64,000 bases of DNA from Phoronis australis. Lineage: Eukaryota > Animalia > Phoronida. Below are positions 6,867-50,157 of the stretch, one piece after another. The notes below the pieces were generated by a model that saw only the letters and a list, made by a program, of their open reading frames with translations, was not told the origin of the DNA and did no database searches. Made by a program: the position numbers and the translations under genes. Numbering within the stretch: position 1 is the stretch's first letter; each line of letters opens with the position of its first letter. The DNA is taken from NCBI GenBank assembly GCA_002633005.1, contig NMRA01000634.1:62001-126000 (forward strand), given 5' to 3'.

Positions 6867-6915
6867 ATGTCGCGAGCGTTTGTGCTGTTGTCACTTCTTT
6901 ATATTCCTTGCTCAG
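6867..6915 (+). CDS. Exon 1: signal peptide
   Basis: ATG 6867, [16 protein letters not shown](G), basic residue then hydrophobic core; donor G|gtaagt, phase 1. Confidence 0.75.
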
Positions 6916-9900
6916 GTAAGTGGGAAAGCTTTTTGATAATTTAGAGAGACACTAGAAAATTTACGAAACATGGCCTAGCAAAGGGATGTTATGCTACTGC
7001 TAACAATTACATGACATCTTTAACGCACTTTGAAGCAAAGCCTGTTGAACTTACTTCATTCTGAAACTGCATGAAACGTAATCTACGTTGTTAGTCGCCA
7101 TGGAATTGGGTGAAATATTTTCTATCTGAAAGTCTTTTGTTTAGCGCACACACCAGACATGTGTTTCGCATACATTTCAACGAAACAAATACGATAGGAT
7201 AAAGTGCCATATGGCGGTACAGTCAAGAAGATTTTGCTTGCAAAAACTGCCTAGGTTACGTGGTCAACAAGCTATGACGAGTGTAATTACGACAGACTGC
7301 TCGGAATCACATTGATCCTTGACCTGCTTCCCGTTCAGTAACGCTAGGACCTCGCTAAAAAGCAAGATTTTGTGAGATTACGTGAGTAATTGCAGTGTAT
7401 TTCAAATGAGAACATGTGACTTTGACTACTATGCTTTTCAGCACAAATACGTTCATCAACTCCACGAGACTAGTTACATACAATTTAAATGATGCAAATG
7501 TATTAATTTGAAATTTTTTACTACTTTTAACAGGTTATTATTTTATTAAGTATTCGAGCAAATCAGTTAACACCAGTCCTGGTGACGAAGAGACACACTG
7601 GGCAGTTACAGTGCCACAGTGTGAGCGCCTTTGTGAGCAGTGGTCGCCATGCAAGTCATTTACCTACAGTGCTGGAGACGGGAAGTGCACACTATACAAA
7701 CAAGACAGGAACTACTTTATAGGGGCCGGACACTATGTCACCCAATCGGGAGTCGACTTTCGCGACAGAGGTAATTTTATTTAAACCTCGTGTAGATAGT
7801 CGCCATTCTTTCTTCTTGTAGTTGCATTGCTCCGTGTAAATGGCTCTAATGGAACTGGTCCAACGTCTAAGGCGCACCTTCTGCAAATCATTATTTACAT
7901 CTTATTTTATACTATTGTGTATACTAGTTATGATCAAGAGTAATTCGGAATCGTCGCGCTGCGGCAAAATCACCCCATGTATGCTTTAGTGTTTTGTTAA
8001 GCAATATATTGTGATATTAAATCTCGAAATATTGTCTCTCTTCGAGCGCGAAATTCTGTGAATTACAAAATCATTTAGTCATACGGCTATTTTTGGTGTG
8101 ACCGTCCTCCAGAGAGAGGGGGGAGGGAGGAGCATTGAAGCCTATGAATCTCGAAGGCAAAAGCCAATACTCATCGATAAACACGTAATACAGGTAAGCA
8201 ACAGAAAATACGATAATTATTATTTCCCATGCATACGCTTAACATACGAATGGAAGACAAAATACGAAACCAATGGTATGAGTACTTCAATAAATAAATG
8301 AATAATGGCCAACGATTTTCATGTAACTTCGTGAGCCATTTTAAAATTCTGTTCCTGAAACTCATTAGATGTCGGTATCTGCCTTAGGAGAGTCTGCCCT
8401 GAAGCAGCCTCTTGTGTTTGACTGGCACAAAAGATTCAAAGATGCAAAGGACAGTCTCAAGGATGGCCAGCTTAAAGCCATGCTCTCCACAACAATGACG
8501 TCGTTGTACCGGCTGCTGCTCCATCAAAACTTATGGCTGACAGAAATTTGACCAGTTGGGGGACATGTACTTGGTTGCAATCTCGTTTGGAACCTGACAA
8601 AAGAGTTTTTGGGGGATTTGAATAGGATGCCAAGAAAATTTGTGGCAGGTCAAAAGGGAACAGCGTGGACACAAAGTCATTCTGTCTTGTGAACGTGGCA
8701 CTGAATACACGAAACACGTCAACATTTTTGTTCGTTTAACTTATTCCGATTCAACATAACTATTTTATTACTTGTATGGGTGTTCATACTTTTTATTGCG
8801 TTACTTGTTAGAGATCATATCCAGATGAATCTGGTTTGATTTCATCATTTTCAAGGTACCCAGAATTCTTTGCAGATTTATTTTTCATTGCGCTGGTCTA
8901 AATGGGGAGCAAGTTGTATTGACAGACCATGTTGTCTACCTGAGACAGTCGTATCCCAAAGAACCCAATGTACCCGTTTCGTTTGTTCACTGCCAAACCC
9001 ACATATCTACCCCAAACACAGCGTGTCTATTTCTAACAAGATCTGTGATATTTTATTAACTTCCTTTTGGTCACTTCTGTATTTCAGTCATGAGCTGCTA
9101 CTTCGACAGTATCGCCAAGAGTAAACTGAGTTACGTGAATAAAACCACAACTGCAGCGGATTATCTGGTTTGCCAGCAACACTGCCTGGATGAAACAGCG
9201 TTTGATTGTAAATCGGTGAACTATTACGCCAGCACGTCGACCTGTGAGTTGAATCATGAAAATGTGGACACTGTTACATCGGTCGCTCAATGGTATTCAA
9301 GCTCCACCTCACAGTATTATGGCAAGACATGCCCAGACAATCGTAAGCAAAATTTTTCTTCATAGTACATGTATCTCACAGTAACGACATACTGACGCTT
9401 TCAAACTGGTCAAGTTGCGTAATTTCCGCCATTGAAATTGCACAGCAGCCAGAAAGTTCTGGCAGTCAACTTTATTAAGTAACATTCAATGTCTTTGCTT
9501 GGAAATATCAGCATATTCATGAATGTACGTATGTTTCATTCAGTTGGTTTCGGACATTTATCTTTGACACAACGATTAAGATATTAAATCGAAAATACTG
9601 TCTTACTTAACTTTATGGTGTAATCCCATTGTAATTATAATCTCACTGTATTGTGAGCATGCCAATATGAAATACGATTTCTGACAACGTTTCTCATTGA
9701 ATTGTAGCATGTCAAAGCGGTTGGCATACATGGCGCGGGCAGTGTTACAAGTTTGTCACCGAAAAAGCTCCTGCGCACTCCAGCAACGCGTGGCTTAACG
9801 CCGTCGAAGGATGCGCTGCGGAGTCGAGTGTGTTAACGAGTATAAACAGCGCACAGGAAATGGATTTCATAAAAATCTTGGCAACGTAAGTTTTTGGTTT

Positions 9901-12900
9901 GTGAGTAAGAGTAACAGCGCACATGAGGATGGTATTTGTAGTTCAGTCAATATGATGTAAGTTGTGTGAATCCTATGAAACGAGAACAAGTCATGATTAC
10001 AAAAAAGTTACTCTCCTAATAAAAACCAATGAAAAGAATTCATTTGAAAACCATGTTTTACTTCCCGCCTAATGTTTAATCAAACACTTGTCTTCATTTA
10101 TCTGGCCTGCGACAGTTTTTTGTCTAGTTTGGAGAGGTCACGTAAAAAAGGTTAACGAACATGTGCTGTTTTGTGAATAAACTGACGACCTTACCAATGT
10201 AATACGGAAAAATAACTGTCATTGAAATGATTGATCGTCTAAACTAGAATGTTGAATTATGAGAACAAACGGCCCATAGATTGCTGTTGTTCCGTAAAAC
10301 AGGAAGTTTCGATCAAGTGTCGCACGATGGATTGGCATTACGGAGTGCACAACAATATTCACCACATTATATCTGAAGGTTTAAAAGTGCTCAAATGTGT
10401 CAATATGCAATAGAAAAAAAATCACCTTCATTTCAGAAAATATTACCCGACCAGCAAGTTTTATATTGGACTGTCATACGGCATCCATGGTAACGAGTGG
10501 ATTGACGGGTCTGCTACTTTCTTCACAAACTTCGACCATGGTAAGTGTAACTATTTATCGCCACTTATTTTCGCGAATTCTAACACAACGAGAATTACAC
10601 ATAGCAAAGTAAATTGATATTTTTGTTATTTTATGGCAACGTCGAGGTGATGGGCATTACCTTCACTCCGTCACACCTAACCCAAATTGCCAGTTTAATG
10701 ACAGGAGCCGAAACCACGTTCCATGACGACGGATCTAAATCCCACTTCCGGATCAAAGGATTCCGCACGTTGCGAAAATGCTTCATACACAGTATCCAAA
10801 CTTCACTTCCGGGACCAAACTTCAGTTCCTAGGACCGGTCTCTGGGTAAGGAATCTGGTCTCCGGGACTGGAGTGTGGCTACCAGAATGGAACATATTCG
10901 TTGTGTACCGGGGCACTGGGGATTCGATATCTAGTGGTAATTGGATAGCGTTGTAGTTAGCCAGAGACGAGGCCATGAAATGGTGTCTGTGATCTGAACA
11001 GAAGGAGATTCATTTTAGTTGATAACGTCAGTTTTTGGCCACGATAGGATAACAAAAACGGACAATCGCCGCACAGGTGAAAAAGTTCATATTGATTCAA
11101 CGTTTCGTCTATTCATTAGTCATCATCAAGTTCCTGTCGACAGTCAAGTTACATCCATTAAATGAAATGAGTGTAAAAACAATGACACTATGACAGGAAA
11201 TAGTAAATAGGTCATCACCATAGATGTGTGATCACTGAGGCCTGCATGCTATTCAGAGAACCAGCAGCATGCTGGTCCTGAATGTCCCTGACTCTTTCAT
11301 GTAAAGCAATTCCTTTATAGGTTCTTTACAGATTTTAATTGACGTTTTGTGTCATCAAGCCCAGAATATACTTTCTAGATCCATTTCAATTCCCGGTGTG
11401 GCCTCGACAGTGTTTTAAACAAGGTTTCCCAGGCCGATCCAGTCCTGAAACAATGTCCTTTTGAGGGAGTCCAGTAACCAGTTGTTCCTATTAAAAATTC
11501 AGTTACATGAATAAGTTCGAGCTACGGGTGGGAAATAACGTCGACAAAATAATTCAAATAAACCTGCGTTCTTCCGGAAGACGGGGTGGATTGATTTTCG
11601 CATCAATATTTCATATACGTGCAGGCGAATGTTATTATTCATTGTTTAAACGTTGGCTATTACGCAAGCACCTTACTGATAAAGGCTAAGAAAACTATTC
11701 TCATTCTAGAAGATTTTTCCTTACGTGGCTGTATGCCCTAAATTTTCCGCAAAACATTTGTTGAATTTGGAAAGTGTATTTCTATGAAAGTAACAGCGGA
11801 TGGCGACGATTTTCGGACGCATCTGACAACTGTTGTTCCCCCTAGTGGCAATTTTAGTTTTTTATACTTTCCACTGTAGCTTTGAAATTTGTTTCCAGTT
11901 GGATTTGACAAATTTACGCCACCTAGTGGTATTATCATTATTACTTGGCTTCTGCCTATCCATCGGCAAAAACAATGTAAAGTTCATTATTAAAACTGAT
12001 CTATGAAATGCGCATAACTGACATTGGTTTTGGGACGGATTTAATATTCTGTTGCGCCGCCTTGTGGCAAGTTTGCTGTTTTCGCGTTTGCAGCTGTTTC
12101 CCCCTAAACCGCTGCAGGATCTTTTTGAAATGTGATTAGTGTTCCTCTCATGGCAGTTTCAGTTTTTCGTTTTCCTCTTCTCTTAAAGAGGCATTTTCGG
12201 ATGGATTTTACTGATTGAACGGCACATAGTAGCCATTTTGTTGCTAACTTTTTTCGAGTTTTGGTGTTCGCCTCACTGTCAGCCATTATTGTGAAACCTG
12301 GCAAACGTGTTTCCGCCCAGAGGGAAGTGCATGTCTTACGTTGATTTACAGACAGATAAACCTGTTGTAGCGCCCTCTAGCGGCATTTTGCCTGTAACTC
12401 TGAATATACAAATATTCTTTATGGATCTTAAAGAAAATGTGCATGTGTTTTGCTGTCAAATTCTAGTGTAGAGTACATTAGTGGCAAGTTTCTTTTTCTT
12501 TGCACTGGTCTTGATATAGATCAAGTTCCCCGTTGCTCTAGGTAGGATTATTGTTGCATGGATTTAAAATTCACAATAGCTATAAAACATAAACATTCGT
12601 TAAGTTTTCTTTGTGGTTCTACTACAAATCGACAATTCTCGTCATTGTCTGTCAGACATTCGCTGAAATCGAGGCCTGTGACTTTTGCGTTGGTTTGGCA
12701 GTGAGATAAATGATGCGTAAAAACGTTAAGTGGATGGAGATTTTGCAGGACTTCCTTCTGCAGCACATTTTTCTCGTGAGCAACATATTCTTACATGTAA
12801 TGGTATGTGAAGACAAGTGATATCATCAGCTCTAAATTGTGTTACATTCTGACTTGAGTTTAGTATTGAAAATCTGTAAACTAGTGCTGATAAGGCCATT

Positions 12901-15900
12901 TTTCTCAGCTAAGCAGTGCTTACCTCAATCAAGTTGTTATTTGTTTTACTTACTAAAGAAAGAGAAGTAACATAAGAAATTCAGCCAAATTATGACACCA
13001 ACGATTTAAGGAAGAAATGAAAAAATAAGTTTGATGACAGACAAAAACACAAACATTCCCTTCAAGGAGCAATTGTGTTTATTGTTTGGAGCAAAATTGT
13101 AAAAAATCTGATAAATGATCAAATTGAAAAATCCCGCCATGTGGTGTGAAATTAAGTATTTTGATCATGCACACACCGAACATGGGAACCAGTGTCCTGT
13201 GATGACTCTAGTTTGCTTTCTTCTGTTACAGGTCATGGAGTTATCAAGAAAGTTGTTTGTTACCCAAACCAACTGTCACTTAAGTGTCCTATTGGCAAAG
13301 TTCTTCGTATACACAAGGCAAATTATGGGCGTACGTCATCTAATGTACCCAACTGCGGAGTTACTGTAAGTATAAGAAGCAATCCAACAATTAATTCCTA
13401 CGCTAGGTCACTGCAGTGGCGCAGCCCCGGGGCCGTGTTAGTCAAGGGAGCCCGCCGGCGCAGTAAAACAAAACAGAACAAAAGTTTCACAATAAAATAA
13501 TCAAATATTCCCAAGGGTTTGGGCCATTCGTCTTCGTTTGGATTAATTTGGGGCTTTTAGATTCAAAACTCACTAGAAGTCATCATAAGAATGTCTCTCC
13601 TCATCACTCTAACCAATAATCATGCTATCAACAATGGTTCAAAAATCAAATTAAAATGTTACAGGCTTAATGAATTATTCCTACACCTCTAATTCTGTAA
13701 TTTGCTGTTAAATTTCAACAGTTTTTTTTATTAAAATGATTCTTTTTTGAAAAAATGCATTTTAAAATGTGAGTAGACTTAATGTTTTATGGGGATTATA
13801 ATAACCCAGGAGATGGTGGTGGAATAGGGGGAACTGAATTACTTTCAGAGGAGCAATTTTCCAGGAAAATATATCTATAGTGATTTTGACTATTGCACCA
13901 TCGAAGATAAACCACGTGTTCAGTTTACTTTTGATGCCATAAAACACGATATCCAGTCCGCTGAAAACGCCAATACCCACCCCTCCCCCCAAAAAAATAG
14001 AACATCGCTCCTCAGTAGCCCTTGAACCAACTAGTAAAAGACATTTTAAATGAACGAGCCAAAGTTATGTATTACTTTATAATTGTTGATGATACGCCTG
14101 AACTTGTTCATATGGAACAACATGTGTTCATCTTGCGCTATATTCTCTTCGCCAATGAAGCACAGAAATACGAAGTCCAACAAAGATTTCTATAATTCGT
14201 AGATTACAGTTTCCCTAAACATTTACACCGGTCTGAGGATTTTTCATAGCCTGCCTACGACAATCGCCCAGTGTTATTGCAAGAATAAGCAATGGTCATG
14301 TACCAAAATAAACTGACCGGTTCAGGAACTCCTGTGGGAATCATTCTTTCAAAGGAAATCACATCATACTTGAATGCACTGCGTCTACAGAACCCACTGG
14401 GTAGCGTAACCCAAGACACTCGCAAGACTTGCAGAGATGCTTAAGGATCCAGAAAAGAGTATTTCGTCTCAGCATTTTTTATTTAACATTCCAGCCTCAC
14501 CGACCAATCATCTCAGTGACCGTCACTCGCGTGATTTTGCGTGGTCTCGCAAAACTCGCAAGAAACTAGTGCTACAGAAGGCACCCTTGATACACGCTCG
14601 ATATCNTCTTCGCCAATGAAGCACAGAAATACGAAGTCCAACAAAGATTTCTATAATTCGTAGATTACAGTTTCCCTAAACGTTTACACCGGTCTGAGGA
14701 TTTTTCATAGCCTGCCTACGACAATCGCCCAGTGTTATTGCAAGAATAAACAATGGTCTTTGTTCCACCATGTACCAAAATAAACTGACCGGTTCAGGAA
14801 CTCCTGTGGGAATCATTCTTTCAAAGGAAATCACATCATACTTGAATGCACTGCGTCTACAGAACCCACTGGGTAGCGTAACCCAAGACACTCGCAAGAC
14901 TTGCAGAGATGCTTAAGGATCCAGAAAAGAGTATTTCGTCTCAGCATTTTTTATTTAACATTCCAGCCTCACCGACCAATCATCTCAGTGACCGTCACTC
15001 GCGTGATTTTGCGTGGTTTCGCAAAACTCGCAAGAAACTAGTGCTACAGAAGGCACCCTTGATACACGCTCGATATCTCAAAAGCAACCTGGCCGGATCT
15101 TGATGAAATCTAGCACAATGATGTAAAGCGTCACACTTGACATTTTTAATTAGTCCTCCTCACCCCAGGACCAGTGGGACAAGGCTTTTCATTGTTTTCG
15201 AGATGAAAGTTTTAGGATGATATCTAGAGCACCGATGGACGTACTTTATTGAAACTTCAAACAATGCACGTGCACTAATTGATTTTCGGGAGGATTCCAC
15301 CACTGCAGCACCCTGGCCTGGTGTTCCGTTGTTCAATTGTCCTATCCAGATCTCAAAAGCCGCAGGTCTTGCTTTGATGATGAAATGAGGGACACTAATT
15401 TGTCACATGCCACCTTTCCATATGCCCCTTATGTATTTTTGGGAAGTGCATTCCCCGATGATATATAGAACTGATTGAACGATTCCAATGAAACTTAATA
15501 TATGAATACGTGATTGCAATGCATCAGCACATGTCACCTTTTTGGCAAATTCGACATCTGAAGCGCTCCCTAGTTGTAGTTTGGTTTTCACAAGGGACAT
15601 TTCAGTATTTTGGGAGGAAAGGCGTTTCCGGATATCTCAGACAGTTTTTCTGATATGTGACGTCAGTGGGCAGTTTCCAGTCGATTTTCGGGCTGATTGA
15701 CCACTGCATATATATGTTTTGATCAGATTACAACAACCACTGAGCTCGTTCTTTCGCTTGGTGTCGATTTGCCAAACCTCATGATTGTTCGCTATGAAAC
15801 GAAGTAGACTAGGCCTGCAAATATCGGATACCAAGTGCTGGGTCCATTTGCGGCATGTTTTATTTCTTTCTTGCAGATGTTGAAAACTGTACATTTTTAA

Positions 15901-18900
15901 GTTTTTGGTTCAATGGTAGTTTTAAAAGGTGAGGTACCAACAATTTTGCAACTTCCTCTTGTAGTCCATCTGCTGTCACCTTTTAACTTATAAGATACTC
16001 ATGAGCACCTGTAGACACATAACGTTCAAGGTGCACTGTGGACGCATGCCAATGTTTCGCGTTGCTCTTATTCGCAGAAATACATGGTCGACTGCATATC
16101 GACGTCCAGTTTCACTATTATTCACAACGCTTGTCACAACAAGACTTCGTGTACAGTTGAACAATCAACCGCAGTGTTTGGTGATCCCTGTGTTGGAGAA
16201 AGAAAATACATCGAAGTGGACTACGACTGTGTTGAAGGTAGGCTAGGCTAGCAACTTCTCATTTCAACTCTTAAGGTAACGTGGGACTCTTTTCAAATAT
16301 CTACAATACTATAGAATTTAACTTTGTAAAAGTAATTTTTTTTAAAAGTATAATTCAATCTCTACTCTCTTTCAGTTTGCCGTGGCGTGACCATGTCTTA
16401 TCAAAAGTAAATGACAAATAATGATCGACGTTCGTAACAAGACAACTTGATGAATAGCACAAACAAATTAAAAATGATATAAATGTTCAAGACGACACCT
16501 CAAAAACGATTTTACAGTTTTCTAAATTATCATTTCGTCCCTCTTGCCAAAATGGAACACTTTATAAACAAATCCTAACATAAAGCACATATCTGATAGA
16601 TTCCAATCAGCCATCTTTGATATCAGATCTTCCAGAGTTGGTCAAATTTAGACATTTTTGTGGATCTCACATAATGTTAAAGTGTATCAACGACTTTCAT
16701 TTCTTATAGTGAGCATTCTATGGGAAACCTGCTAATTTCATCCCATTTCTTCATAAAACTCCAATATGCTTCAGTTTTAAGATTCCGAACAAAAGGCAGC
16801 GAACCTGTCACGAGATAGTTCGCGAACAGATGCTTCTGTTCATGTTTGCGCCCACAAATGCAACGTAGTTGATCCTGAACCGAAGGCGTGCCAGATCACG
16901 TGACGCGAAGTCTGACCTTTGACCAAAAGATATACGTCACATTTAATCACGTGATGTTTCCGAGGTCATGTTTTTAATCACACGCCATCAAGACACTGGT
17001 TGTTTTCGTTTTACAAGTTGTCTACGTTGATTTAATGTATGAATTACAAATTAATGTTGCTACACCTTCTTAATATTCGTTCTGTTTGCAGAATTGAACA
17101 CTTGTACCGTGTTAGAGCCGTTGGCTAGTTTCGCTTGGAAAGATGTATCGTGTAACAAATCTGATGTGGGATATATATGTAAAAAAGGTGAGGAAATTTG
17201 CTGATGATGATCAATACAGCCAAAAAATACAAGATCGTTGTACTGGTTTGATTTGAATCAGCCATTAGACATGCAATCCGTCGTCTAAGAAGTGAACTTT
17301 TGATTTTAATTAGACCATATACTGCTATAAAACAGGCCCGAACGTGTCCCTTACTCATATGAGAATGAATTTCTGGTCGCCCCCAGAGCTGACACTTCGC
17401 TTTTAAGACCGTGCTCAGCACATAGAATAATATGACGTCTCAAGACATGTTGTAGTGCCTGGTTTCAAACAGTAGCGAACTTTCACGCCTGTAGAAGCTC
17501 TGAAATCCCCCTAATTTAATTAAGGAACAAGAGACCAATTTCATACAGGTAAGTGGTCTAAATCCGATTTTATAGAAGGCAGATTGGTAACCCCTTTTAA
17601 TCTTAACCCAAATTTGGAGAATAATGCACACCAGACAGACCACTTTTGAATGGCGTTTACGTTTACCCCATGACCAATTGATGACGCAATGGTGTCAATT
17701 CGCTCCTTTCGAATGCTCTGGTCAACGAGACACTGTTAAATTTGCAAGGTCAAGTTTACTCTCGAATTTAGCCATTATGAACATTGGAATCTGTTGTCCA
17801 TCACTAACATCTGGTTCTCTATTGGTCAATAAAGGATGAGGTCAGCCGCGGCTGTACTTTAAGGAGAATGCCAGCCAAAAAACAATCTATTTTGTATCAA
17901 TTTATATCGAATAGTTCCACACAATAACAACAAGTTCAGTTATTTTACTTGACACATGACGGCTGACGGAGGTGTTGCAATTAACCAATGATATCACAGG
18001 CTCGAACGCAGTCTGGTCAGCAGTTCACAACACGCTTGCTGGTATAGCTTGAATTCATCTTTTTACGCCAATAAATCACCAAAATTCGAAGTAAAACCCT
18101 TACAAACACATCGCGTTCTTGAACAAACGTTTTGTCTTATTCCTCTTTTACGGATTTATAGGTAATTGAAAGTACCGTTGCCAGAATTCGATAGGCCAAT
18201 GTACCAAAGCGGTCGCGAAAGTTTGGGGTGTGTTCGGTAATAAACTCGAATTGTTCTTCCTTGAGATACAGAAAGGAGAACATAGCTGTGTATTTTAATT
18301 TTAGTCTATCGATTTTTTCATTTATAAATACACAAAACGCTTGTTATCCCGGCCAGTGACTCGGAACGCGATCAGGCCCGTCACGGGCGCGCTGAAGACA
18401 TCACGAACATAAACCAGCAGAAGTTGGAAACTAAACTTCTAGTCACAAAAACTAGAGAGCCAAAGAAGTAATGCGTATTTTGGTGAATTGGCTACGAAAC
18501 TGCAAATCTATTTACTCCTCGGGGTCGCGAAGTCAGGTTCCCCTTTCCCTTCCACAGGCCTTGGTGCCCGGTCAATTAGCTTTAATGCATCTAAAGCCGG
18601 TAACGCAGTGATTTATTTGTTGCTGGCTTCTCAAAACATATGCACTCACGAACACTCTAATGAGACAGACTTTGACATTTTGTTTCAGTTTTATACATGC
18701 ATTTAATTAGTTAGAGTGAGAATTATTCATTTCGAAACAGAACACACAGAAATAAACGTCAATATGGCAACTTGCAATCCCGACTTAGAAGAGTGCTCAT
18801 CAGTTTTTCTGTCCTGGCATGAGCTATTTGGAACGCCGGCTCTTGTAAGTGAAATCACTTACGACAAAATGCCGGCCACAGACACGGCGATGTTTCACGG

Positions 18901-21900
18901 CCTTATACTTGATAATAACGGCTTACTTTTCATTCTTCATTGCCGTGAGTCACTTTCGAAGAATTTTGGGCTCTCGAGGAAATCGAAAAACGATAGACCC
19001 GCTTTCCTCGCAGCTTCATATTTCGCATAAGCGGGAACGATATACCACATCATAGCGGCACTCGATTACTCTGTAGAAGAACCACTGACTTCGCTGCCTC
19101 GTTTACTCACCTTCCACATAGGTTAACGTGACAACTCTAGGTAAGGTAAGATCGACCGTATACGAGAAGATGCAGATATAGACCGACTTATACAGTAAAA
19201 ATGACCAATTAAATCGGGTGGCATTCTCCTTTACATCAGCTGAACGTAAAACGCAAAGTTTCCAACCTTAACCGTCTCTTAGAATTAATAAACAACAGAT
19301 GAGAGAAATGAGAGACAATTTATAACGGTGAGGTACGCAAACAAACCAGATCGTAGCGTAGTACGGTAAAAAATCTGATCAAAAGACCCCGGTTTCCAGA
19401 TGTAAACAAGACTCAAATGCTAACGATAGAGACTGGATTTTACATTACCAAATGTTCTTTTCCTGCTTATCTACCGGGCCAGTGTGCATTTGCTACGCAT
19501 GCGCAACCCAAATTCTTGAACTACTGTATGATGAAAGTACATGTATTGTATATGTACTAATATTACAGAATTGACCCCGTTGTTGACCTTGATCGTTTCG
19601 ACCATCCTCTTTAATGACCGATGTCAGACGATCATAGTAAATTTTGCTATTTCCAGCTCGCCAGACTTACTCCCCTTTGGATTGCACTTCTGTTAGTGGA
19701 AATAGCGAGTCTGCGACGTGCCCCGCAGGTAACGTATACCTCAAATCATAACTTTTCCTTCACAATGACACTTTCGATCATCTAGTTATCTGTTCCTTTT
19801 ATTGAGGGTCATCAAGAGGTTTGAAGACATTGTGGGTAACAAAAAATCTTCTTGAATAATTGTTTTTCCTGCCAAAATATGAGCATGTCTCAGTCAATGA
19901 GCTCGTGCCACTAGGCAATCAGCAAATTTTAAATGCATGTAAAATACACGTCAAATGTTGAAAAATCAGATTATCATTTGTTAAAAAACTATATTGTACA
20001 CACAGCCCCGTGCCAAATTGATGCCAATTCTTTAAAGAGATAAGTAATGCCGCACATCAAACGCTGTAATATCGAGTTTACATCTTACAACTCCTAAGTG
20101 ACGGGGGCAAAGCTCGATCGATTCTTTTGCCTGGGTTCGGGCAATACATGTAATTGGTGGATCGCAGGAAAAACTGCATCCTTTCTGGCGTGTCAAACAA
20201 TCAGCACAAATCGTACTTGCGCTAACCACGTCCATGGATTTCTGAAAATGTACTGACAATCTCCGCCCGTCGGGTTGTCTGCTGGCGTCCAGCGAATGAG
20301 AAATGTCCGGACATCGGAATACTTTCAAATTTACTCTGTGCAACTATTGGTTATTTTTCACTCCGACGCCAACCCCACGCTCCTGGTCTCCCAACTTCAC
20401 GCCAATACGTCCATTATCGCCCAGACAGTCATCAGATCGTGGTTGGATGCTTTATACGACTTAGACTTCGGCCTAAGTCTTTTAATTCCTACTTACATGT
20501 ATGTCTCGGTCACAAAGGGCGTTGACGTCAAATATCATCAATTACTAATCGGATGAAAAATTACCCAATCACGCTAAGTATTGGGAATATCATTAGCACT
20601 CAATCAGCGCTACTGGCCGAGCATAACCCAGTATGCTACTAAGGCTTGGCAATTCACGCATTGACAGCTATACCTGTCCTGCTTCATTTCTAATTTTTTA
20701 TGACCTCTTCTTAAATTTCAGACTTCCCACAGGGAGTCGCCTGTCGATGTTCGTGTGCTAATGGCCGATGGAAACATTATCGACGTATATGCGACTGTTC
20801 TCTCTGCAGCTCCAACGCCGTTAGTGTGGCGCGCTGTTGCAAACCTCACTCAGGCTATTCACCCGGCCCCGACTACAAAGCGTCTGTTGAATGCGTAGAA
20901 AATCGTCAAACACCCCTAATCGCAGGACCCAGTGCAACTTGCCCAACAAGTAGGTAGACTTGCCCTTCCAGCAACTTGAACAAATAAGTCAATTTGTGGA
21001 AATACAAACCTCTTAGGTGTCGCTTAAATATCTTAGACTTTCTGCAATTTTGCCTGTGTAGGAGAATGCTTCTGCCAAATTGTGCGAAGCACAATCATGA
21101 TTTTTATACACCTATGCTACCTGTAGTATTCGTAGCTTATGATATTAAGCTCAAACTGCTGAACAGTTTGATACCAGTAGCCGTACAATGACGTTTTTAT
21201 GGGGTGCCAGTCACGAATCACGTGAGAATCCTCTCTCACTAATGTCAGATGTTATTTCTGCAAATTGGCGAATCTTTGATTGGTTTATCCTCTGTCACAG
21301 CGCATCCCAGATGTATGGATTTCTTGCTTTAGTTTACCAAATTCGCATAACCAGGTATATCTTTACGGTCATAATCTCACGTTGCATTGACTTTGCGTCA
21401 GGAGCACCTATTTCACAGAAAAGTAGACCTCAGTCATTTATATCCACTGCATAGGCGAGTTCAAGAGAGGGCCCAGGGCCACACACCCCACCCACCCTTA
21501 CGGTCACGACCTTCTAAAAATAAAAACGCCCTTCTTAGGAACAAAAGAATATTTTTGTCTTCGAAAATTGTGGTTGAGTTCTCCTTTAGACATCCTAGTT
21601 CCACCAGTGCACTGTTGCTTAAATATCGTGCAGATTCTCTGTAAAAGGTACATTGCACCAAAAGAGTCTCCCACGTCCGCTGTCCACGTCTTCTCAAACT
21701 ATAGAAAAAGCTGTAAAACACCAAAGAAAAATGAAATAATGTGCTTTTTGGACCAGCCTGCAATACCGTCATGTGCTATATGATTCCATAACTACATTGG
21801 CCAAATAAACTCGGTCAGTTTACACAATCCAATCGATTTACACTCCCTTGACTTATATCTTTTAGATAGATTCTTTGGCATTCCACCAACTGTCAGAGGT

Positions 21901-24900
21901 CACTTAGAGGAAACATTTAGATATTCTCAGGAAAAACGCATTGGCTATTGGTAATTAGCGTTGATATGAATGTCGTTCTGCAGATTTCCCAACAGCCACC
22001 GACTGCTCGTGTGGTGGCTGCAGTGCAGACTTTGAAATTATCAACGACAACACGTGCAAATGTTCTTCTGCCACGACTGACTGGGCCACAGCACAGTGTT
22101 GTAGGATCGTATACACGCCGAGATCAACAGGTTGGTTTTAAATGTTAACTCGTGTTTAAGATGGCACACCGCGCCGTGTCAAAGGAGAGAAATCAACAAA
22201 AGTGTCAGTGGAGTTTCTCAGTAGTCACGGACTTTTTTATCAACTTCGCATGCTCCCCAGTGTGACAGTAAACTAAAAATATCAACTCGCTTATTAAAAA
22301 ACCCGGAAATTGTGTGAAACAAATAGTAAATCGTTGTGGAGTTCAGAGGATGACATGTCCGTTAGACTACTCGTCAGTTTGACATGCCTGTAAACTAACC
22401 GAAAAACATCAAGGTTCAGGCCCGTCCCGACGAAGGTGAAGTGGACAACTTAGAAGGACGTGAGTTTTTTGGATTGATTGGCGCGCAACTTTCAACTTTA
22501 AAATACCAAAATCATGTGATCAGTAACCTTTCCTGTAGAAATTGTCTAAACTGAGAGCCATAGCTCCAAGCAATTCAGACAATTTCTTGCCATGAATTTC
22601 TCCCAAATATTCCCCCCAAATGCTCACCGATGCAGAATTTTCCAAATTTTGCCATATGGACGTACTTTCGGAGCCATGGTTTGCAGGATTTTCTGAACTG
22701 TGATGAGCGATTGTCAAGCAAAGAAAAGGCTTTGTGAGAAACAGACCAAATTTCGGCTTACCTACAAAATAAATTTAATAGTCTCTTATCTGGACTCATT
22801 GTTTCTCATTCCGTGTAAATGTCCGAAAATGCGGCATGGCTTACATTTGGAGCTTGACAGTTGAACGTACGCCATATGACAATCGGTTTGACGCGTGGTG
22901 TGCCACTATAAATTGCTTCTCTATAGGAAATGTTGCGGAGCAGTACTTTCCTTATACAATGTAGACCAGTCGCCTAGAGCACTTAGCATAGATGAACGAG
23001 ATACCCACATCTGACCATGGGAGCACTTAGAGTTCAACTCAGTTTATTAGGAAATGGGCGTCTGTGGTTGTCTGAACTCTGGGTGCAACCCCTGGAGACC
23101 TTACAAGGGGGTCAAAAATGAGCAAGCCTAGATGGTTGAGGTACTTACCAAAACTGATTTAAACAAAAAGTAGCACCGCACTGAACACCGAATGACCCAT
23201 GACAGACAAATTGCAAGATGGAATGGGTCCGGCAGAAGCCAAAAAAGGACACCCAAAAATGAGCTAGCTGATACATTCGAGGTAACATAAAAACAATTCC
23301 AGGTGATTCAATACATGACACTGATCACTAAATGCCCCATGACAGACAACATAAATACTGTTTGCGCCCGCCTGAAACTTCCAAAAATTTCAACCACAGT
23401 ATGCCATTAAAAATTTGAGCTACATTAGATATTCGAAGTAGCAGCTAAAACTGAACTCTCTCCTTGCTTAAAGGTGAAGGCAACCTTTTTTCATGTCATT
23501 TTTAGCAAAAATAAGGTTTGTTGATTATCCCAGACATATTTTTTTTCACTTTATTACAGCTTTTCGTAATTGAATTAATTATTCGTTCTTTACTCTAGAA
23601 GTGACGTATTGGGAGCCAAGAATTTCGCGCCAATTTCTTTTCATATACATGTAGTCTGACTGTGGGAGCTTTCGAGCCACTCATTGTTCTACCTCGGTTG
23701 TGCTAAGTTCAGTCGTCGTACCAAGAGTTCTGTGCAGTGCTATTGTTCGTTTTAAATCAGTTTTGGCCGCTACCTCAAATATCTAGGCTAGCTCAATTTT
23801 GACCCCCTTGTAAGGTCCCCAGGGGTCCCATTCAGAATCCAGACAACGGCAGACGTCCATATTCGTATACACTGAGGCAGACTCTAATACTCCTATGGTC
23901 AGATATTGGTACCTCTTTCATCTATGCTAAGTGCTCTGGGCTGCCGGTCTATTAGTTCTCTGCACAGTAATTGTGCGGCCACAGTAAACATACCAACTTT
24001 CGCGCGTATGCATAGTTTAGGCATTTGCGTTTAGCATACACAGATCTTAACCGTGAGTGACGCCTAAATATTAACAACGGATTTAACACCACTCTGCATT
24101 TCAAATAAGCCGTGAATATTTTCGCAGATCCGTTGGTTGTAGTTAAGCAGTATGTTTTAACTAACGGACAAAGCTGAGTTTTATACAACTGTAGAGTCTG
24201 CTTTTCAGATTTTCTGATCACGGCGTGCCTCAGTTCAGTTCTAGTCAGTGGCATAGTGACGAATGTTAAACCAGTGTCAACTCTCGCCGTCTTTGCTTAC
24301 GTAAAAGAAAACAGCCTCTACTGTAATGACTGCAGGTTCGATCATTGTTTTATTGAAATTGTAGGTACGTATCTTGCAGACAGATACTTGTCAATAGACG
24401 GCATCGTAATCGACGGACAAGATGATTGGACACCTTTGGGTGTGACGTCAGAGGATGAGTGTTTGCAAGCTTGTGAAAATCAGGTGATTAATTACCATGA
24501 CGACAACAATATTCTTTATATGTTCTCATGCTGTCTACGTCATGCAAATCATTTGGTTACAATGACGTTTGACACAAGTAGTGCAGGAAGGGGGCAATCC
24601 TTGTTTATATTCGAGCCCCAGTTCAAATACCATTCCACAACCTGCTGTTCTTGTCCTTGGACCAATTTGCTTCATTTAAGTCACTAACTATCGGCTACTA
24701 TTGTCAAAGCACACCTAACGCTAGAAAATAACTTCAGGGATATAACAAACAGTGTGAAGGGGTGTATCAACGGTGCGTTTACATTTAAAAATCAGAATAA
24801 CAGAACACCTTGTTGAGGTCTACTTGTTAATTTTAGGCTGGTTGTAATTCTGTTGAGTTCAAGTCGTCTGATAGCACCTGTCGACTGAGCGGGTCCGCAA

Positions 24901-27900
24901 TAAAGCATGTCGGCCTATCAGGGTTACTGCAACAACAGTCGGGATATACGTACTACGAGAGGCTGGACGGGGAAGGTAAGGATATGTAAATCATCACAGG
25001 AGACACGATCTTTATCCAACCATTTTGTCATTGCTGTCATTTATTCTACTGCACTATTGTTAGTGATGGAATAGTTCCGACAAACGCGATCGGGCTATGC
25101 GCATCATGGTTCTAATACGATTATTTAGTAGTGTCTTGGGTTGACCACGAGGCCACATTTCCGTAAGTCACAGGAGCTGTCACCTACATTGTACATGCGT
25201 TCTACATGCTTTCTTATTTTAGCAATTCACATCTATATCACATTAAACGAAATACAATAAAAAGGTTTGGAAATGGTTATGAAATTAAATTGCTTTCACT
25301 GTGTGCTTCTGTTTACCCACACATTTAATCAGGTGATCGTGACACGTGCTCCATGAATTTATCAGGGACATACAAGTTTCCTTGCTACCCCTTCGTAAAT
25401 CCTTGAGCTGCATTGTAAGTGCTCCTAAGGCATCGTAAAACCATCTTTACGCTTTTGTTAGCAACCAGTACTTGTGGGACACAGGTGGTGGAATAACACG
25501 CCGTGACAACTCATAGGACATGGTCTCCAACAATAACGAGCTGTCAGTTCTGTTGAAATCTTGAAATCACTTCAACATGAAGGAGCAGTTTGAGATTAAT
25601 TACGAAATGGCTTGTTGTATAAAAATCAAAAAAATTTTGTGATGTATTGCCGCTTAAAGACGAAAACTAATTTGATCAAGATAAAGAAAATCTTAGATTG
25701 AGCTAAAAGAGTTCAAACTGTAGTGCAAGATCTTGTTTGGTCTCTGGAAATACTCACTACATTAGGACAAAACCCAATCCGATGGTACTCGAGTCATATC
25801 ACCGGATCAGAAGAACTAATAGTTTCTAATAACCACCACCGTGTGGCAGTGCGATCATTTGCTGCTTATGCCGAGTAGTCTACCTGAAACTGTTTCTCCT
25901 AAGGAAAGATACGGCGACTCAGTTGGGACACTGAAAAACTCCCTTTCCGCCATGTCAAATTAGCATTCCGCCCGGGCAAATTAGTAATCTTCCGAGAGAC
26001 ATGTAGTTTAGTATTCCGACCTGGCCGATTACTAATCTGCAAGCCACGCGGAATGCTAATCTCGTATTTCGTCATTTTATTGATTCATTGTCTTAACTGA
26101 GTCATGGCTTCAAAAACTCATTTTTGAGAATTGCCTTTGCGAAGGACAGGTCCCGTCAATCTCTACAGGCCAATTTGTATTGTTATCCATTTGTACACCT
26201 TTTGACTTGCAACTTTTGTTATTTATGTCTTAAGGGGCCAGATTACCTCAGAAAAGTTTTACAATGTAAGTAATTTCGTAAAATCGTAGGAAAACACGAG
26301 ACCGAGTTTGTGGACTGCAACTTTTCGTTTTAGGAGACATCCGAAATTACTTCCACAAGTTTGACGGTGTTTACCTATCTGGTGTCACTGCTATTGATAC
26401 CATACGCGACTCCACGTTGACTTTGACTTCATGCATGACTATTTGCTTGGAGGACAGCTCGTGCAAATCGACGGATTTCGATTCGTCAACAAAAACATGC
26501 TACTTGCGAGGTGGAAACAGCTTTGATGGAACTCTCACTTTGTCCAGATATTACTACCACTTTGATCTGATCACGAGTACCCCAGGTGAGAATTTTTTAC
26601 CTTTTACGAGACAGGGCAGCGCGTGAAGTCGTCTGTGTATAAATTGAGAGTAATCGCTATTTTGTCAGTGTTACGAGCGCCTGTTTTATCAGATCGTAAG
26701 CCCGATCGTAAATAAAGAATAGCGACACGTTATTGCAAATGCAATGAAAACAAATACAGATGCAACTGATGTAGAGTTGACTGTCATATTCATATCAAAC
26801 AACCATCATAACCACCATCATAAATTGTGTGCGCGACGACCTTGGCCTCGTCTCATTGAAGGTCTTAAGTCCAGTCGTAGCTGTAGCGTAGACGGTCGTA
26901 GGCACGTTACTGCAAACGCGGTGGTGTATTAGTACTGCCTTCACGAGCACCACAGTGTGTTTACCTAAATGTATACACAGCAATTGCCAAGGTAAGGTTT
27001 TGTCTTCAATAACCTGCAACTACGATTGTGACTTTGTATTATATAGACCAGACAGGGAGTAGTCTACCTTTAATTAAATGTGTCCAGGCATGCGTTCTGT
27101 GAACGTTAACTTCCTTGCGTAAGGTTAGTGTGGTTACGTGCTTTGCATGTTGTGAACAATAATATCTTGCTTGATCTTACGTACTCAAGAGGACGTCGGG
27201 TCTAAGGAATGCTGCTCAGATCAACGGGAGAGGAGGAGGTACATGTATATATCGCTTAGTAACTTGATGAAACTCTTGTACTATGAGTCCCTGCTCTTAG
27301 ATGCCCATGCGTACTTTTTGAAGATATTTTTCTGGTGCTGAAAGAATTTGCTGTCCAAGAAGGTGGGAATGTTTAACCATCTTTCCATAGCCTTTGGGAG
27401 ATACTACATAGAAATTTCTTGGAACATTCATCACCACCGCCGTCATGGCAACTTCCAAATCCCAGCAACACCTAAGCATATCCCTACAAAGGCCGTCGTT
27501 AACAATTTTCAACCTTGGTCATTATGTTGTCACAGCACGTAAAAATGATAAAGATTTTGTGGCGAATGCTGATCGCTGTACTTTATACAGCAAAAAAGAA
27601 ATGAGTGTTGCGTTATGTCATAATGGGATTGACGTTCGTCAAACAAGAAATAAATCTGAAAACCCCACTGACATCACATTTCAATGGGTTTTTGGATGCC
27701 CGAGAGAATGAAATCAACCTGACCGAAAACATAGAATGTACACGTATCTTTCCAGGCGACATTAGTGATGGATATTCCACTAATCGAAAACCATGAAAAT
27801 GCCAGTAGCATGGTCACTGTGGCAATCACCAGAATTGTCGGAGTAGTGGAGTCTTTTGTCAACTTTATGAAACTGCTCTTCAATGCAACATAAAACACGT

Positions 27901-30900
27901 GACGGTACTATTTTTTGACTTTCAGATCCATTCTTCACTTGTGACACCGTGAAAAGCAGTGAAGCTGATGGTAATCAATTCTCTTGTGGAGCAATAGGTA
28001 TATACTTAAGTATTGTGAGCGTATTGTTGTAATTTGGTTGAAAACCGACCAAAATGAACAGAAAAATGCGATACATTATTCTTTTTTCATATTCGGGGCC
28101 ATCGTTTATCCCACTGTCTGTAGTCTTCATAAGATAATTACAACTATAAAACATAGGTCTCTTACGCATGTATGACGCATGCAGTTTCAGTCATCCATTC
28201 GTGTTTGCCTTAGTACAGAGGAAGGATACGCTAATCTAGATTTTCAGCTAACTACAGGAGTCCAAATTTTCAATAATTGTGAATATTCTACAGCGATACT
28301 CTTAGGTTATGTTTTGACGCTACCGTTTTATGTCACCAAGGAAGAAGAGATCCAAATGTGTTTTATCTCTCATTTCAGCCACCTGGATGGATCATTTTAC
28401 CTACGTCCAAGCCGCAGTATTGGCAGGTTACAATAATGAATTGCCGGACAGCGACAAAAATGCATGTCTCCAGCAATGTCACGACTCTGCCAGTTGTAAA
28501 ACTATCGACTATAAAGACAAAGCAGGTAATAAACTACTAAAAAGTAATGCCTCTTGAATTTTTTGTTCATAAATTCGACAGTGACGTTTATTTTGAAAAA
28601 TTCAAAAATGCCCTAATAGTATAAGTCAAGACACACATTCTTATATTAAGTTTAATACAACAACCCAATTATTAATTTCACAGTGAAGCTTTTGTAGTGA
28701 CGTGAATCTGAACCAAAAGTCACAAAATAGAGATTCCAAAGACATTTGGTTCGCACACGGATTCAACGAAATGCAAATTTACGAAAACTACATACCTCAT
28801 AACGTTGGGATGAATGAGTCTGTAAGTCTATAAATGAATTAATAAATGGTTTTATTGAGTATAATGCTTCTTGTATGGAGTTCCAACAGCTTGATACCGG
28901 CTGATGGTCAATGGCATTCCGTGGAGCACCACTGATTCCTACTGAAAGTGAAAGAAATTAGACAATAAATCCATAAGTTTAGTAGAAGTTACATAACAAT
29001 TGTTCGAAGGTGCAGAGAGGAGGCAGTGTGTCCTAATGTAATAGATGCCCGCTTTCTTTACTCGAGGTTGGGAGTTCGAGTCCCCCTGGGCCACATTGTG
29101 AAATCCTGCAGTTATATTTTATTGCAAATCGCACGTCATCAGCTTTTCATTTCGTTCCAGGGAAAACGTTTGTATGCCACATCAGTTACTCAGATCGCTT
29201 TACAGTATCAGAGTACACATCAGGCGACACGTTTTTCGAGCATTTTATTTTTGACAGTTATCGAGGTAAGTGTGGGTGAATTGTCGGGACGTTATTGTTC
29301 AAGTATGCTGGTATGTGTAATATGTAAGCCCCTGGAGCCCTCCCTCTTTACATATGTGGGTGCAGTGACAGACTGACTGCGTGGCCATTTGAGGGAAAGC
29401 CCGCGGCACCTTCCTTTCAAATGTTGGGAAAAGGCGACTTTAATATAACTTTCAACATTGATTTTAACGGAATCAAACCACAAAGACAAGAAATATTTTG
29501 GATAAATCGCATTCAAGCTGAATAACATGAATATTGAGCCACGCAGGTTTACAGTCAACACAATATTCTCAGCCGGAAGTTATTTTCTTGGGTTTCTACA
29601 CCGTTTTGTCAAACAATCCCATGTTGTCATGTACTCTGTCACAGCGCCACCTATATGGAAATGTAGCACTGGGAAAGAGTAAGCTGTTATACTGGACTTC
29701 GTATGTAAAGCAGGCATCACGTAATGTAATGTGATATTGCATGGTAGAACGCGCATATATACTTAATATCATTGGTAAACAAATACAAAAACGCAAACAA
29801 GAACATCCATTCGTACACGCATGCGCACCTCAGGAAAGACTATTCTCGTATATGTAAACAATTGCTACATGGAGTTAACATGAGCAATAAAATTTCCCAT
29901 TACTTAAAAAAGCTGTCATGCACAAAATTTTTATACGCAAATAAATCTTCAGCATTTTAGTACTCATGAGTATATGTAACAAACTTGTGAATATTAGGTA
30001 TATTTTTGACACCCCTCCTTGTAAATCTACTGTTTGGCTAATAATAGCAAAATGTTTAATAAGAAATCATGCGTCTCATAAAGTCCAAGTATAACACGAT
30101 TGTAAGAAAAACAGTTGGGAAGCTGAATGTGACACTTTTTGTATTTTTTTAATTCCATTTTCCGGTAAAATGGCGCCTGCAAAAAACGTGAATTTTGTTG
30201 CTCTGTAAATTTTCAAAGTTATCTTCACCTTGTTGCTTGAAATTGGACGACCAACAAGAGCCACATCATTTACTGCACCATTAGACGGCGAGGAAGTTCC
30301 AGAGAATGAACTCGAGTGGTTTTCATCATTAAAAAGGGAGTTAAAAAGGTCTAATGAGGAACGAACTTGTCATGTGAGAATAGTTTATCTGTAGTGCTAA
30401 AGCGATATATGGGCCTCGACAACATCACCGTTGAAAGAGTGCACCCGATTGGCGATAAAGGTACTATCATTGCTAAGTTTTCATTCTATAAACAACGACA
30501 ACAAGTGTGGAAGGAACAGAGAAAGTTTCAAGGTTCGAATTTTTTTGTTATGAGGACTTCCCGCATGAGATCATTGTCAATCGAAAGCGCTTGATACCTT
30601 TTCTCAAGTCAGCGAGACGGTGCCCGCATGTTAACAAATTGGCTGAATAGAGATCGGTTGGTGATTGACGGGAAAACCTATACAGTTGGCAATAAAAATG
30701 CGATTCCCACCTTCAGTGAATAGTGGCGATCAAGAACTCGACAAAGATGGTGTGCAGAGCACCGAAGCAAGTGTTGTTCATAGATTAGTGTTCGTGGCTA
30801 AGGTCTCGTAATTAAAAGTTTCTGAATCAGTATTCGGTAATTCGGTCCTGTTTATTTTTTCTGTGCCCAATCTTTACGGTTATTAGTTATGAGTCCCTAT

Positions 30901-46025: not shown

Positions 46026-46031
46026 AATAAA
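46026..46031 (+). promoter_or_regulatory. Candidate polyadenylation signal
   Basis: AATAAA starting 20 nt after the stop codon; AT-rich context lowers specificity. Confidence 0.45.
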
Positions 46032-49840: not shown

Positions 49841-50157
49841 TTAAACTCAGTAACCAGTGGTAACCTACTTTACCAGACGATGGACGCTTAGCATGATAAG
49901 ATATGTAGTATACTACAGTAGTTGCTTAAAATAAAAAGTATTTTACAGATTCACTGAGTTCTATTTTGTTTCAATTTTTATTTGGTTTTAAGTAAAAACA
50001 TCACTTTAACAAGAAAAACGGCGTTTATTGAAAGGTCACGACTTCAGACTTCAGGCCTCTAACATAGGAAATAGTTACAAAAGCCGAAGCGAGTCGAGAA
50101 AGGTAGATCGATTCATTGCAATGTTTCTCGTTCTGTATGTGATATAAATAGATAATT

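What the first reader, a model, noticed from the sequence alone, without database searches (positions are those of the whole stretch)
9708..17187. A SUEL/rhamnose-binding lectin domain is inserted inside a C-type lectin domain
Seen: CTLD exons 4-5 end at ...[14 protein letters not shown] (phase 1). Two exons encoding a complete SUEL domain follow (ANYGR, FGDPC..KY). Only then comes the CTLD C-terminal exon ELNTCTVL...WKDVSC...YICKK. I found no other CTLD C-terminal exon in 10541-13231. Known: this position is the CTLD long loop that normally carries the EPN/QPD Ca2+/sugar motif; that motif is absent here and WND reads WKD. Inference: the Ca-dependent sugar site has been replaced by a grafted Ca-independent lectin domain, and skipping exons 6-7 would restore a contiguous CTLD in frame.
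Basis: partly seen in the sequence, partly recalled or inferred. Interest (0 to 1): 0.85.

Follow-up and report, generated by a model that had tools for sequence, protein, structure and literature searches.

The report
Domain nested inside a C-type lectin
In an animal gene for a predicted secreted protein, two exons for a complete SUEL lectin-type domain sit in frame in the middle of a C-type lectin domain, exactly at its sugar-binding loop, but both domains have lost key sugar-binding residues, so the nested unit is likely a protein-binding module, not a sugar sensor.

Summary
Exons 4-5 (C-type lectin N-part), 6-7 (SUEL, all 8 Cys) and 8 (C-type lectin C-part) have GT-AG borders and lie in one open frame of a 24-exon, 1282-residue gene with a predicted signal peptide. 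The SUEL pair is flanked by phase-1 introns and starts where EPN sits in an intact CTLD. The N at 14606 lies between the two SUEL exons, so it explains neither nesting junction.

The sugar-graft reading is not supported. The SUEL has Tyr at the Glu required for sugar binding (23 of 23 distinct relatives keep Glu) and Thr at the Asn site (73 of 77 keep Asn).

The gene likely holds a second nesting: two PAN domains inside a resistin-like domain.

Weak points: RNA support is one inferred read over 10540>13232 and none on exon 8; no orthologue was found; the joined unit was not folded. Ten paper searches found no description. The scan earlier noted other inserts in lectin domains in other genomes (trefoil in a CTLD, PAN in an F-lectin; unchecked), not this pair.

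New variant of a known kind; interest 0.5.

The parts
6867..6915 (+). exon 1, start codon and predicted signal peptide
   Evidence: most hydrophobic 19-residue windows are at the N-terminus (max 1.42), none looks transmembrane
7534..9342 (+). exons 2 (7534-7770) and 3 (9088-9342): two PAN/Apple domains
   Evidence: Pfam PAN_1 E 7.6e-9 and 4.2e-10
9708..9885 (+). exon 4: CTLD N-part, Cys182, 193, 216
10437..10540 (+). exon 5: CTLD WIGL-type motif (FYIGL) and first half of the long loop; ends in phase 1 just before the EPN position
13232..13365 (+). exon 6: SUEL N-half, with Tyr in place of the sugar-binding Glu
14140..15077 (.). assembly join: N at 14606 between two 96.6% identical copies of about 470 bp, inside intron 6
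16078..16237 (+). exon 7: SUEL C-half; Asp, Gly and Lys sites kept, Asn site is Thr
17092..17187 (+). exon 8: CTLD C-part (WKD for WND), Cys377, 393, 402
19657..22130 (+). exons 9-11 (19657-19728, 20722-20949, 21984-22130): two resistin-like domains, each cut by a phase-1 intron
   Evidence: exon 11: Pfam Resistin 50-88/88 E 1.1e-6, RELM-beta E 1.4e-5; exons 9 and 10 by internal similarity only
24380..26585 (+). exons 12-13 (one PAN) and 14 (one PAN)
27926..27997 (+). exon 15: probable N-part of a third resistin-like domain
   Evidence: 72 nt, phase 1-1, like exon 9; 7 residues match RELM-beta 25-37 by eye (segment printed); not significant against exons 9/10; no PDB or Pfam hit
28379..35613 (+). 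exons 16-17 (28379-28525, 29161-29265) and 18 (35365-35613): two PAN domains lying between the parts of the third resistin-like domain
   Evidence: exon 17 has no Pfam hit
37462..37596 (+). exon 19: C-part of the third resistin-like domain
   Evidence: similar to exon 11, 0 of 2000 shuffles reach the score; no Pfam hit of its own
41007..41482 (+). exons 20-21: Ephrin-receptor-like (GCC2/3-type) Cys repeats
42340..46006 (+). exons 22-24: PAN, PAN-like, PAN; stop at 46004-46006, AATAAA at 46026

Best explanation
A two-exon SUEL module sits in frame inside the long loop of a C-type lectin domain in a predicted secreted mosaic protein, likely placed there by exon shuffling, and the nested unit likely serves as a protein-contact surface because both sugar sites are predicted dead. 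Shown: the exon order, the open frame, the phase-1 introns on both sides, the position at EPN, all 6 CTLD and 8 SUEL cysteines, and the lost binding residues. Inferred: (1) a phase 1-1 cassette entered a phase-1 intron in the loop; (2) exons 4, 5 and 8 still close into one CTLD core, with Cys216 pairing to Cys402 across the insert; (3) the SUEL, whose first and last strands lie in one sheet, hangs from the loop as a folded knob; (4) the protein is a multivalent extracellular scaffold (8-9 PAN, 3 resistin-like, 1 CTLD, 1 SUEL) that binds proteins or matrix. The same route likely put two PAN domains inside the third resistin-like domain.
For: One frame over 24 GT-AG exons, ATG to stop, with AATAAA 20 nt after. 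20 of 23 introns are phase 1, the signature of 1-1 shuffling (PMC4284660). The loop is 26 residues without and 124 with the insert, against about 30 canonical; it is the variable part of the fold and can be expanded or missing (PMC6468738). The RBL sheet is beta1-beta5-beta3 (PMC2430599), so its ends should lie close (inference). The Glu and Asn sites are lost, and RBL domains lacking them are proposed to bind non-sugar ligands. Both nesting junctions lie in N-free sequence. Run X2 has 82-85 nt of depth in the exon-5 bin, 58-60 nt in the bin with the 5' part of exon 6 and none in the next bin, all from pairs with the first mate on the minus strand; the sum fits one 145-nt read over 10540>13232. 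Run X1 has same-orientation depth on the bins of exons 7, 10, 11, 12-13 and 14.
Against: No splice joint of this gene was listed (threshold 3 reads); the 5>6 read is inferred from bin depths. The exon-8 bin has zero depth in 4 of 4 runs, and X1 and X2 show 6-18 nt of depth spilling into the bin after exon 7, which may be unspliced or read-through RNA. Exon 8 added no significant score when exons 4+5+8 were aligned to two intact CTLDs (282 and 1 of 1000 shuffles reached the score; other exons scored as well). No orthologue was found, so neither conservation nor an uninserted ancestor is shown. I picked the exon model by looking for open, cysteine-bearing exons, so the open frame is partly by construction. 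No ligand is known.
Confidence: 0.6

Rival explanations
1. The nested form is a minor or absent isoform. Transcripts either skip exons 6-7 (plain CTLD) or read through the exon-7 donor to a stop four codons later and end in intron 7, giving a short PAN-PAN-half-CTLD-SUEL protein.
For: The skip is in frame. The exon-7 donor is AAG|GTAGGC, read-through meets a stop, and ATTAAA lies at 16467. Depth spills past exon 7 in X1 and X2 and there is none on exon 8.
Against: The one inferred junction read goes from exon 5 to exon 6, not to exon 8. With so few reads a gap on a 96-nt exon is unsurprising. Exon 8 keeps the cysteines that pair with exon 4, and downstream exon bins are covered.
Confidence: 0.17
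2. One reading: the SUEL is a working Ca-independent rhamnose/galactose site that replaces the lost Ca-dependent site.
For: Tyr of YGR and the Asp, Gly and Lys contacts are kept. The insert sits exactly at the old site. A different glycan cannot be excluded.
Against: Glu is Tyr and Asn is Thr; the Glu is required for binding in latrophilin-1 and invariant in 23 of 23 distinct relatives.
Confidence: 0.1
3. A recent, tolerated shuffle with no function: the insert breaks the CTLD and the pieces are drifting.
For: Both binding sites are degenerate, expression in the sampled runs is very low, and no orthologue was found.
Against: All 14 cysteines of the two domains, the core motifs and all splice sites are intact with no stop, although the SUEL is only about 50% identical to its nearest relatives found.
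Confidence: 0.08
4. Assembly error, or a separate small gene inside the intron, places the SUEL exons here.
For: Short-contig scaffold with 7 single-N joins, one at 14606. Introns 5-7 hold repeats that attract foreign reads. No DNA run could be laid.
Against: The N lies between two exons that together make one whole SUEL, and exon 5>6 and exon 7>8 are each N-free. The phases fit on both sides. The SUEL exons begin at an acceptor with no leader of their own found, and one inferred read links exon 5 to exon 6.
Confidence: 0.05

Closest known systems
Canonical long-form C-type lectin-like domains (mannose receptor family: PLA2R 7qsr, MRC1 5xtw; Reg3-alpha)
   Same: Six cysteines, WIGL-type motif, W-x-D-G, C-terminal strand; best PDB hits of exons 4 and 8.
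   Different: The domain is discontinuous, with 98 residues of another fold at the EPN position; no EPN/QPD; WKD for WND.
SUEL/rhamnose-binding lectin domains (SUL-I 5h4s, CSL3 2zx0, latrophilin RBL 2jx9)
   Same: Eight cysteines, YGR and DPC motifs, Lys/Gly/Asp contacts.
   Different: Lacks the essential Glu and the Asn, like the predicted non-binding RBLs of EVA-1, PKD1-like 2 and C. elegans LAT-1 (PMC2430599); sits inside another domain, not in tandem.
CTLDs with a remodelled long loop: snaclecs (swapped loop), link modules (short loop), DGR CLec-fold proteins with inserts
   Same: The fold tolerates large change or inserts and can lose the Ca/sugar site (PMC6468738, PMC5006420; passages).
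   Different: None of the passages read describes an independent, recognisable domain placed in the long loop.
Phase 1-1 exon-shuffled mosaic proteins of marine invertebrates (lancelet analysis, PMC4284660)
   Same: 20 of 23 introns are phase 1; domain-sized exons; new domain combination.
   Different: Here modules land in introns inside domains, giving nested and not serial order, probably twice in one gene.
Proteins with CTLD and SUEL in tandem (locus L077 here; PKD1L2, recalled)
   Same: Both domains in one chain.
   Different: In L077 they are about 700 residues apart and each is intact.

Membership tests
C-type lectin-like domain (fold family) | WIGL-type beta2 motif | tested here: met
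   FYIGL at residue 248, aligned to the motif of an intact CTLD
C-type lectin-like domain (fold family) | Conserved cysteines for three disulfides (long form) | tested here: met
   Cys182, 193, 216, 377, 393, 402; pairing inferred
C-type lectin-like domain (fold family) | [quoted passage not shown] | tested here: not met
   Loop 124 residues in the full model, 26 in the skip form
C-type lectin-like domain (fold family) | The halves close into one CTLD fold | not testable with these tools
Ca-dependent C-type lectin (CRD) | E/Q-P-D/N motif in the long loop | tested here: not met
   None in residues 181-404; exon 8 opens with E-L-N, possibly a remnant
Ca-dependent C-type lectin (CRD) | W-N-D on beta4 | tested here: not met
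   WKD at 388
SUEL/RBL domain (fold family) | Eight cysteines, YGR and DPC motifs, Pfam PF02140 | tested here: met
Sugar-binding RBL | Glu at +1 from the first Cys | tested here: not met
   Tyr285; 23 of 23 distinct relatives have Glu; requirement from PMC2430599
Sugar-binding RBL | Asn equivalent to CSL3 Asn74 | tested here: not met
   Thr350; 73 of 77 distinct relatives have Asn
Sugar-binding RBL | Tyr27, Asp79, Gly83, Lys86 equivalents | tested here: met
Sugar-binding RBL | Measured rhamnose/galactoside binding | not testable with these tools
   Needs a binding assay
Exon-shuffled class 1-1 module | Flanking introns both phase 1 | tested here: met
   Introns 5 and 7 are phase 1; cassette 294 nt
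Exon-shuffled class 1-1 module | Donor gene or uninserted orthologue | tested here: inconclusive
   No genome held; homologue searches found none
Resistin-like domain (third copy, split) | C-terminal cysteine pattern | tested here: met
   Exon 19 against exon 11, p 0.0005; exon 11 passes the Pfam cut-off
Resistin-like domain (third copy, split) | Exon 15 is its N-part | tested here: inconclusive
   By-eye match to RELM-beta, but p 0.69 and 0.12 against the gene's other N-parts

The most novel reading that the evidence does not exclude
Phase-1 introns inside domains act as landing sites for whole modules, and the C-type lectin's ligand loop is a recurring socket in marine invertebrates. This gene shows the process twice (SUEL in a CTLD, two PANs in a resistin-like domain), with the SUEL as a conserved, splice-switchable binding knob on a folded CTLD core. 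Domain annotation misses such nested units because each half scores below cut-off.
Probability: 0.3. Interest if true: 0.72.

Novelty: new variant of a known kind. Interest (0 to 1): 0.5.

Why it matters
Animal extracellular domains are usually shuffled as beads on a string. Insertion into introns made up under 10% of domain gains in one survey (PMC2926785), and I found no paper describing a whole domain inside a CTLD long loop. If the nested unit folds, the CTLD ligand loop can carry an entire domain, which bears on how receptor specificity evolves, on scaffold engineering, and on lectin censuses: here exons 5 and 8 get no Pfam hit and exon 4 stays below cut-off. The case also warns against reading function from names, since two 'lectin' domains here probably bind no canonical sugar.

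Tried and rejected
No whole genome is held.

Sequencing runs: no RNA holder was listed; four runs came by species label only. Both read lays gave no listed splice joint for this gene, and most laid reads were intron repeats.

Homologue searches: exon 4 gave 5 candidates, none significant. Exon 7 gave no candidate. The six-PAN alignment gave 2 PAN-array proteins among 7993 candidates. The representative search with exon 3 gave 79 proteins; Pfam listed no SUEL or resistin in any and one intact CTLD, in P0074 (two proteins shown with only their best 5 families). These blanks are weak, because queries were single short exons or PAN only. The blastp printed nothing and may have failed, so I do not rely on it.

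Metagenome SUEL loci: 80 of 97 confirmed loci were kept; none matched exons 4, 5 or 8, and the one with a CTLD (L077) is tandem. Genes with long introns would be missed.

Structure: complex prediction of exons 4, 5 and 8 was not available, no verdict. Exon 10 folded alone gave pLDDT 45, uninformative. The Atlas search with exon 11 gave only scores under 0.8.

Slips: loop lengths and the exon-7 columns were indexing errors, corrected; one search had two off-by-one exon borders, corrected.

Rejected: hidden CTLD exons in introns 5 and 7; the N as the cause; another resistin N-part before exon 19 or C-part after exon 15 (none seen).
Full report
OBSERVATION. Extending the model by hand-guided scans gave a 24-exon gene, 6867-46006 (+), 1282 residues, one stop at the end, a hydrophobic N-terminus and no transmembrane-like window, with AATAAA 20 nt after the stop. 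I chose exons for being open and cysteine-bearing, so the open frame is partly by construction; the domain hits are independent of that. Order: signal, PAN, PAN, CTLD-N, SUEL, CTLD-C, resistin-like x2, PAN, PAN, probable resistin N-part, PAN, PAN, resistin C-part, Ephrin-receptor-like repeats, PAN, PAN-like, PAN. The organism is an animal, probably a marine invertebrate (inference from domain content); no genome is held.

IS THE CTLD REALLY SPLIT? Exon 4 is a clear CTLD start. Exons 4+5 align to the intact CTLD of L077 better than all 1000 shuffles, but not to that of P0074 (852 of 1000 reach the score). Exon 8 is the weaker part. Its best PDB E-value is 0.15, though 6 of 8 hits are CTLD C-termini with all three cysteines aligned in the best. 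Its signature occurs once in the window against once in 100 shuffled windows. Adding it to exons 4+5 gave no significant gain against those two distant references. No other CTLD half was found in introns 5 or 7. The six CTLD cysteines are divided 3+3 across the insert. Counting from W-x-D-G, exon 5 ends at position 15, and position 16 in the intact L077 domain is the Glu of EPN. Exon 8 opens with E-L-N, perhaps a remnant. The insert therefore sits at the Ca site-2 motif, defined by E/Q-P-D/N and W-N-D (PMC6468738, passages); both motifs are lost.

ASSEMBLY. The window has seven single Ns beside near-identical duplicated stretches. The one at 14606 is in intron 6, between the two halves of the SUEL. 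A misjoin there would need each side to carry a nesting junction already. Misjoins at intronic repeats cannot be excluded, as no DNA run was laid.

EXPRESSION. No RNA holder was indexed; four runs were offered by species label, of which about 18-19% of each raw run was read. No joint of this gene reached the listing threshold. Bin depths show low coverage from pairs with the first mate on the minus strand, which in most stranded libraries means plus-strand RNA. X1 covers the bins of exons 10, 11, 12-13 and 14 (47, 240, 587, 333 nt) and exon 7 (about 487 nt). X2 has 82-85 nt on the exon-5 bin, 58-60 nt on the 5' exon-6 bin and none on the 3' exon-6 bin; the sum fits one read of the run's mean length, 145 nt, across 10540>13232. 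This is an inference from depth, not a displayed junction. Against: exon 8 has no depth in 4 of 4 runs, X1 has none on exons 3-6, and 6-18 nt of depth spill into the bin after exon 7 in X1 and X2. The exon-7 reads could also come from a paralogue at 90% identity or more.

THE SUEL IS PROBABLY NOT A SUGAR SITE. It has all eight cysteines and the YGR and DPC motifs. CSL3 binds through Glu7, Tyr27, Gly83, Lys86, Asn74 and Asp79 (PMC3269628, passages). Here the Glu site is Tyr285 and the Asn site Thr350. Among relatives from the 80 loci, 38 of 43 hits cover the first Cys and all 23 distinct ones have Glu after it; 73 of 77 distinct hits have the Asn. In latrophilin-1, Kd for rhamnose went from 1.8 mM to about 140 mM with Asp or Gln at this Glu, and binding was undetectable with Ala or Arg; the authors favour non-carbohydrate ligands for such domains (PMC2430599, passages and sections 6 and 9). 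So the insert does not restore canonical sugar binding; an unknown glycan remains possible.

MECHANISM. The SUEL pair is 294 nt between two phase-1 introns, in a gene where 20 of 23 introns are phase 1. Shuffled exons in lancelets favour phase 1-1 (PMC4284660, passages). A 1-1 cassette entering any phase-1 intron keeps the frame; it should persist where the host fold tolerates it. The long loop is the variable part of the CTLD, and the RBL's first and last strands share a sheet, so the ends should be close. I infer a folded CTLD core with a SUEL knob where the sugar site was, in a secreted scaffold of interaction domains. Folding, ligand and order of events are untested.

SECOND NESTING. Exon 11 is resistin-like, and exon 19 is a third such C-part with no adjacent N-part found. 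The only candidate is exon 15, two PAN domains upstream. It has the size and phases of exon 9 and matches the RELM-beta N-part by eye, but is not significant against the gene's own N-parts and did not rank in the top 8 of 228 candidate exons. Exon 15>16 and exon 18>19 are N-free. I rate this nesting about 65% likely.

COMPARISON AND NOVELTY. No orthologue and no other SUEL-in-CTLD protein turned up, but these searches were weak. Ten full-text searches were run. Three aimed at CTLD insertion returned zero papers (12, 13, 51); in the others I saw only listings, apart from nine papers read in passages (PMC2430599, PMC3269628, PMC10377782, PMC514892, PMC10140915, PMC6468738, PMC4284660, PMC2926785, PMC5006420), none describing this layout. 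No supplements were read; domain-architecture tables there could hold such a protein. The Zelensky and Gready 2005 review was not seen. Earlier notes of this scan report trefoil modules in a CTLD loop, PAN in an F-type lectin and inserts in intelectins in other genomes. They are unchecked and not evidence, but they suggested that nesting recurs.

VERDICT. New variant of a known kind (exon-shuffled domain insertion). Interest 0.5, held down by thin RNA support, no homologue and no fold.

Noticed in passing
window 27926-37596: Probable second nesting: two PAN domains between the N-part (exon 15) and C-part (exon 19) of a resistin-like domain.
   Followed up: partly
window 19657-22130, 37462-37596: Resistin-like domains as internal modules of a PAN-rich mosaic protein; the phrase 'resistin-like domain' occurred in none of the 20 papers listed.
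   Followed up: partly
window 16238-16470: Read-through of the exon-7 donor meets a stop after four codons, with ATTAAA at 16467 and a few nt of RNA depth beyond the exon bin: a possible short isoform.
   Followed up: partly
window about 30200-34900 (intron 17): By eye, a decayed LINE-like retroelement with many stops, partly duplicated around the N at 33758; not scanned against families.
   Followed up: no
window 14606, 33758, 39257, 52293, 57447, 58991, 59505: All seven single Ns are beside 95-99.6% identical duplicated stretches, typical of uncollapsed haplotype overlaps.
   Followed up: partly
window 17853-19233 and 47526-49843; 22962-23951: Dispersed repeat families (about 75% identical copies; one 226-bp inverted pair) that attract many RNA reads from other loci.
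   Followed up: no
L077:1-7641: 2547-residue open frame with SprB, PKD, LamG, SUEL and an EPN/WND-bearing C-type lectin domain in tandem, likely a bacterial surface adhesin.
   Followed up: partly
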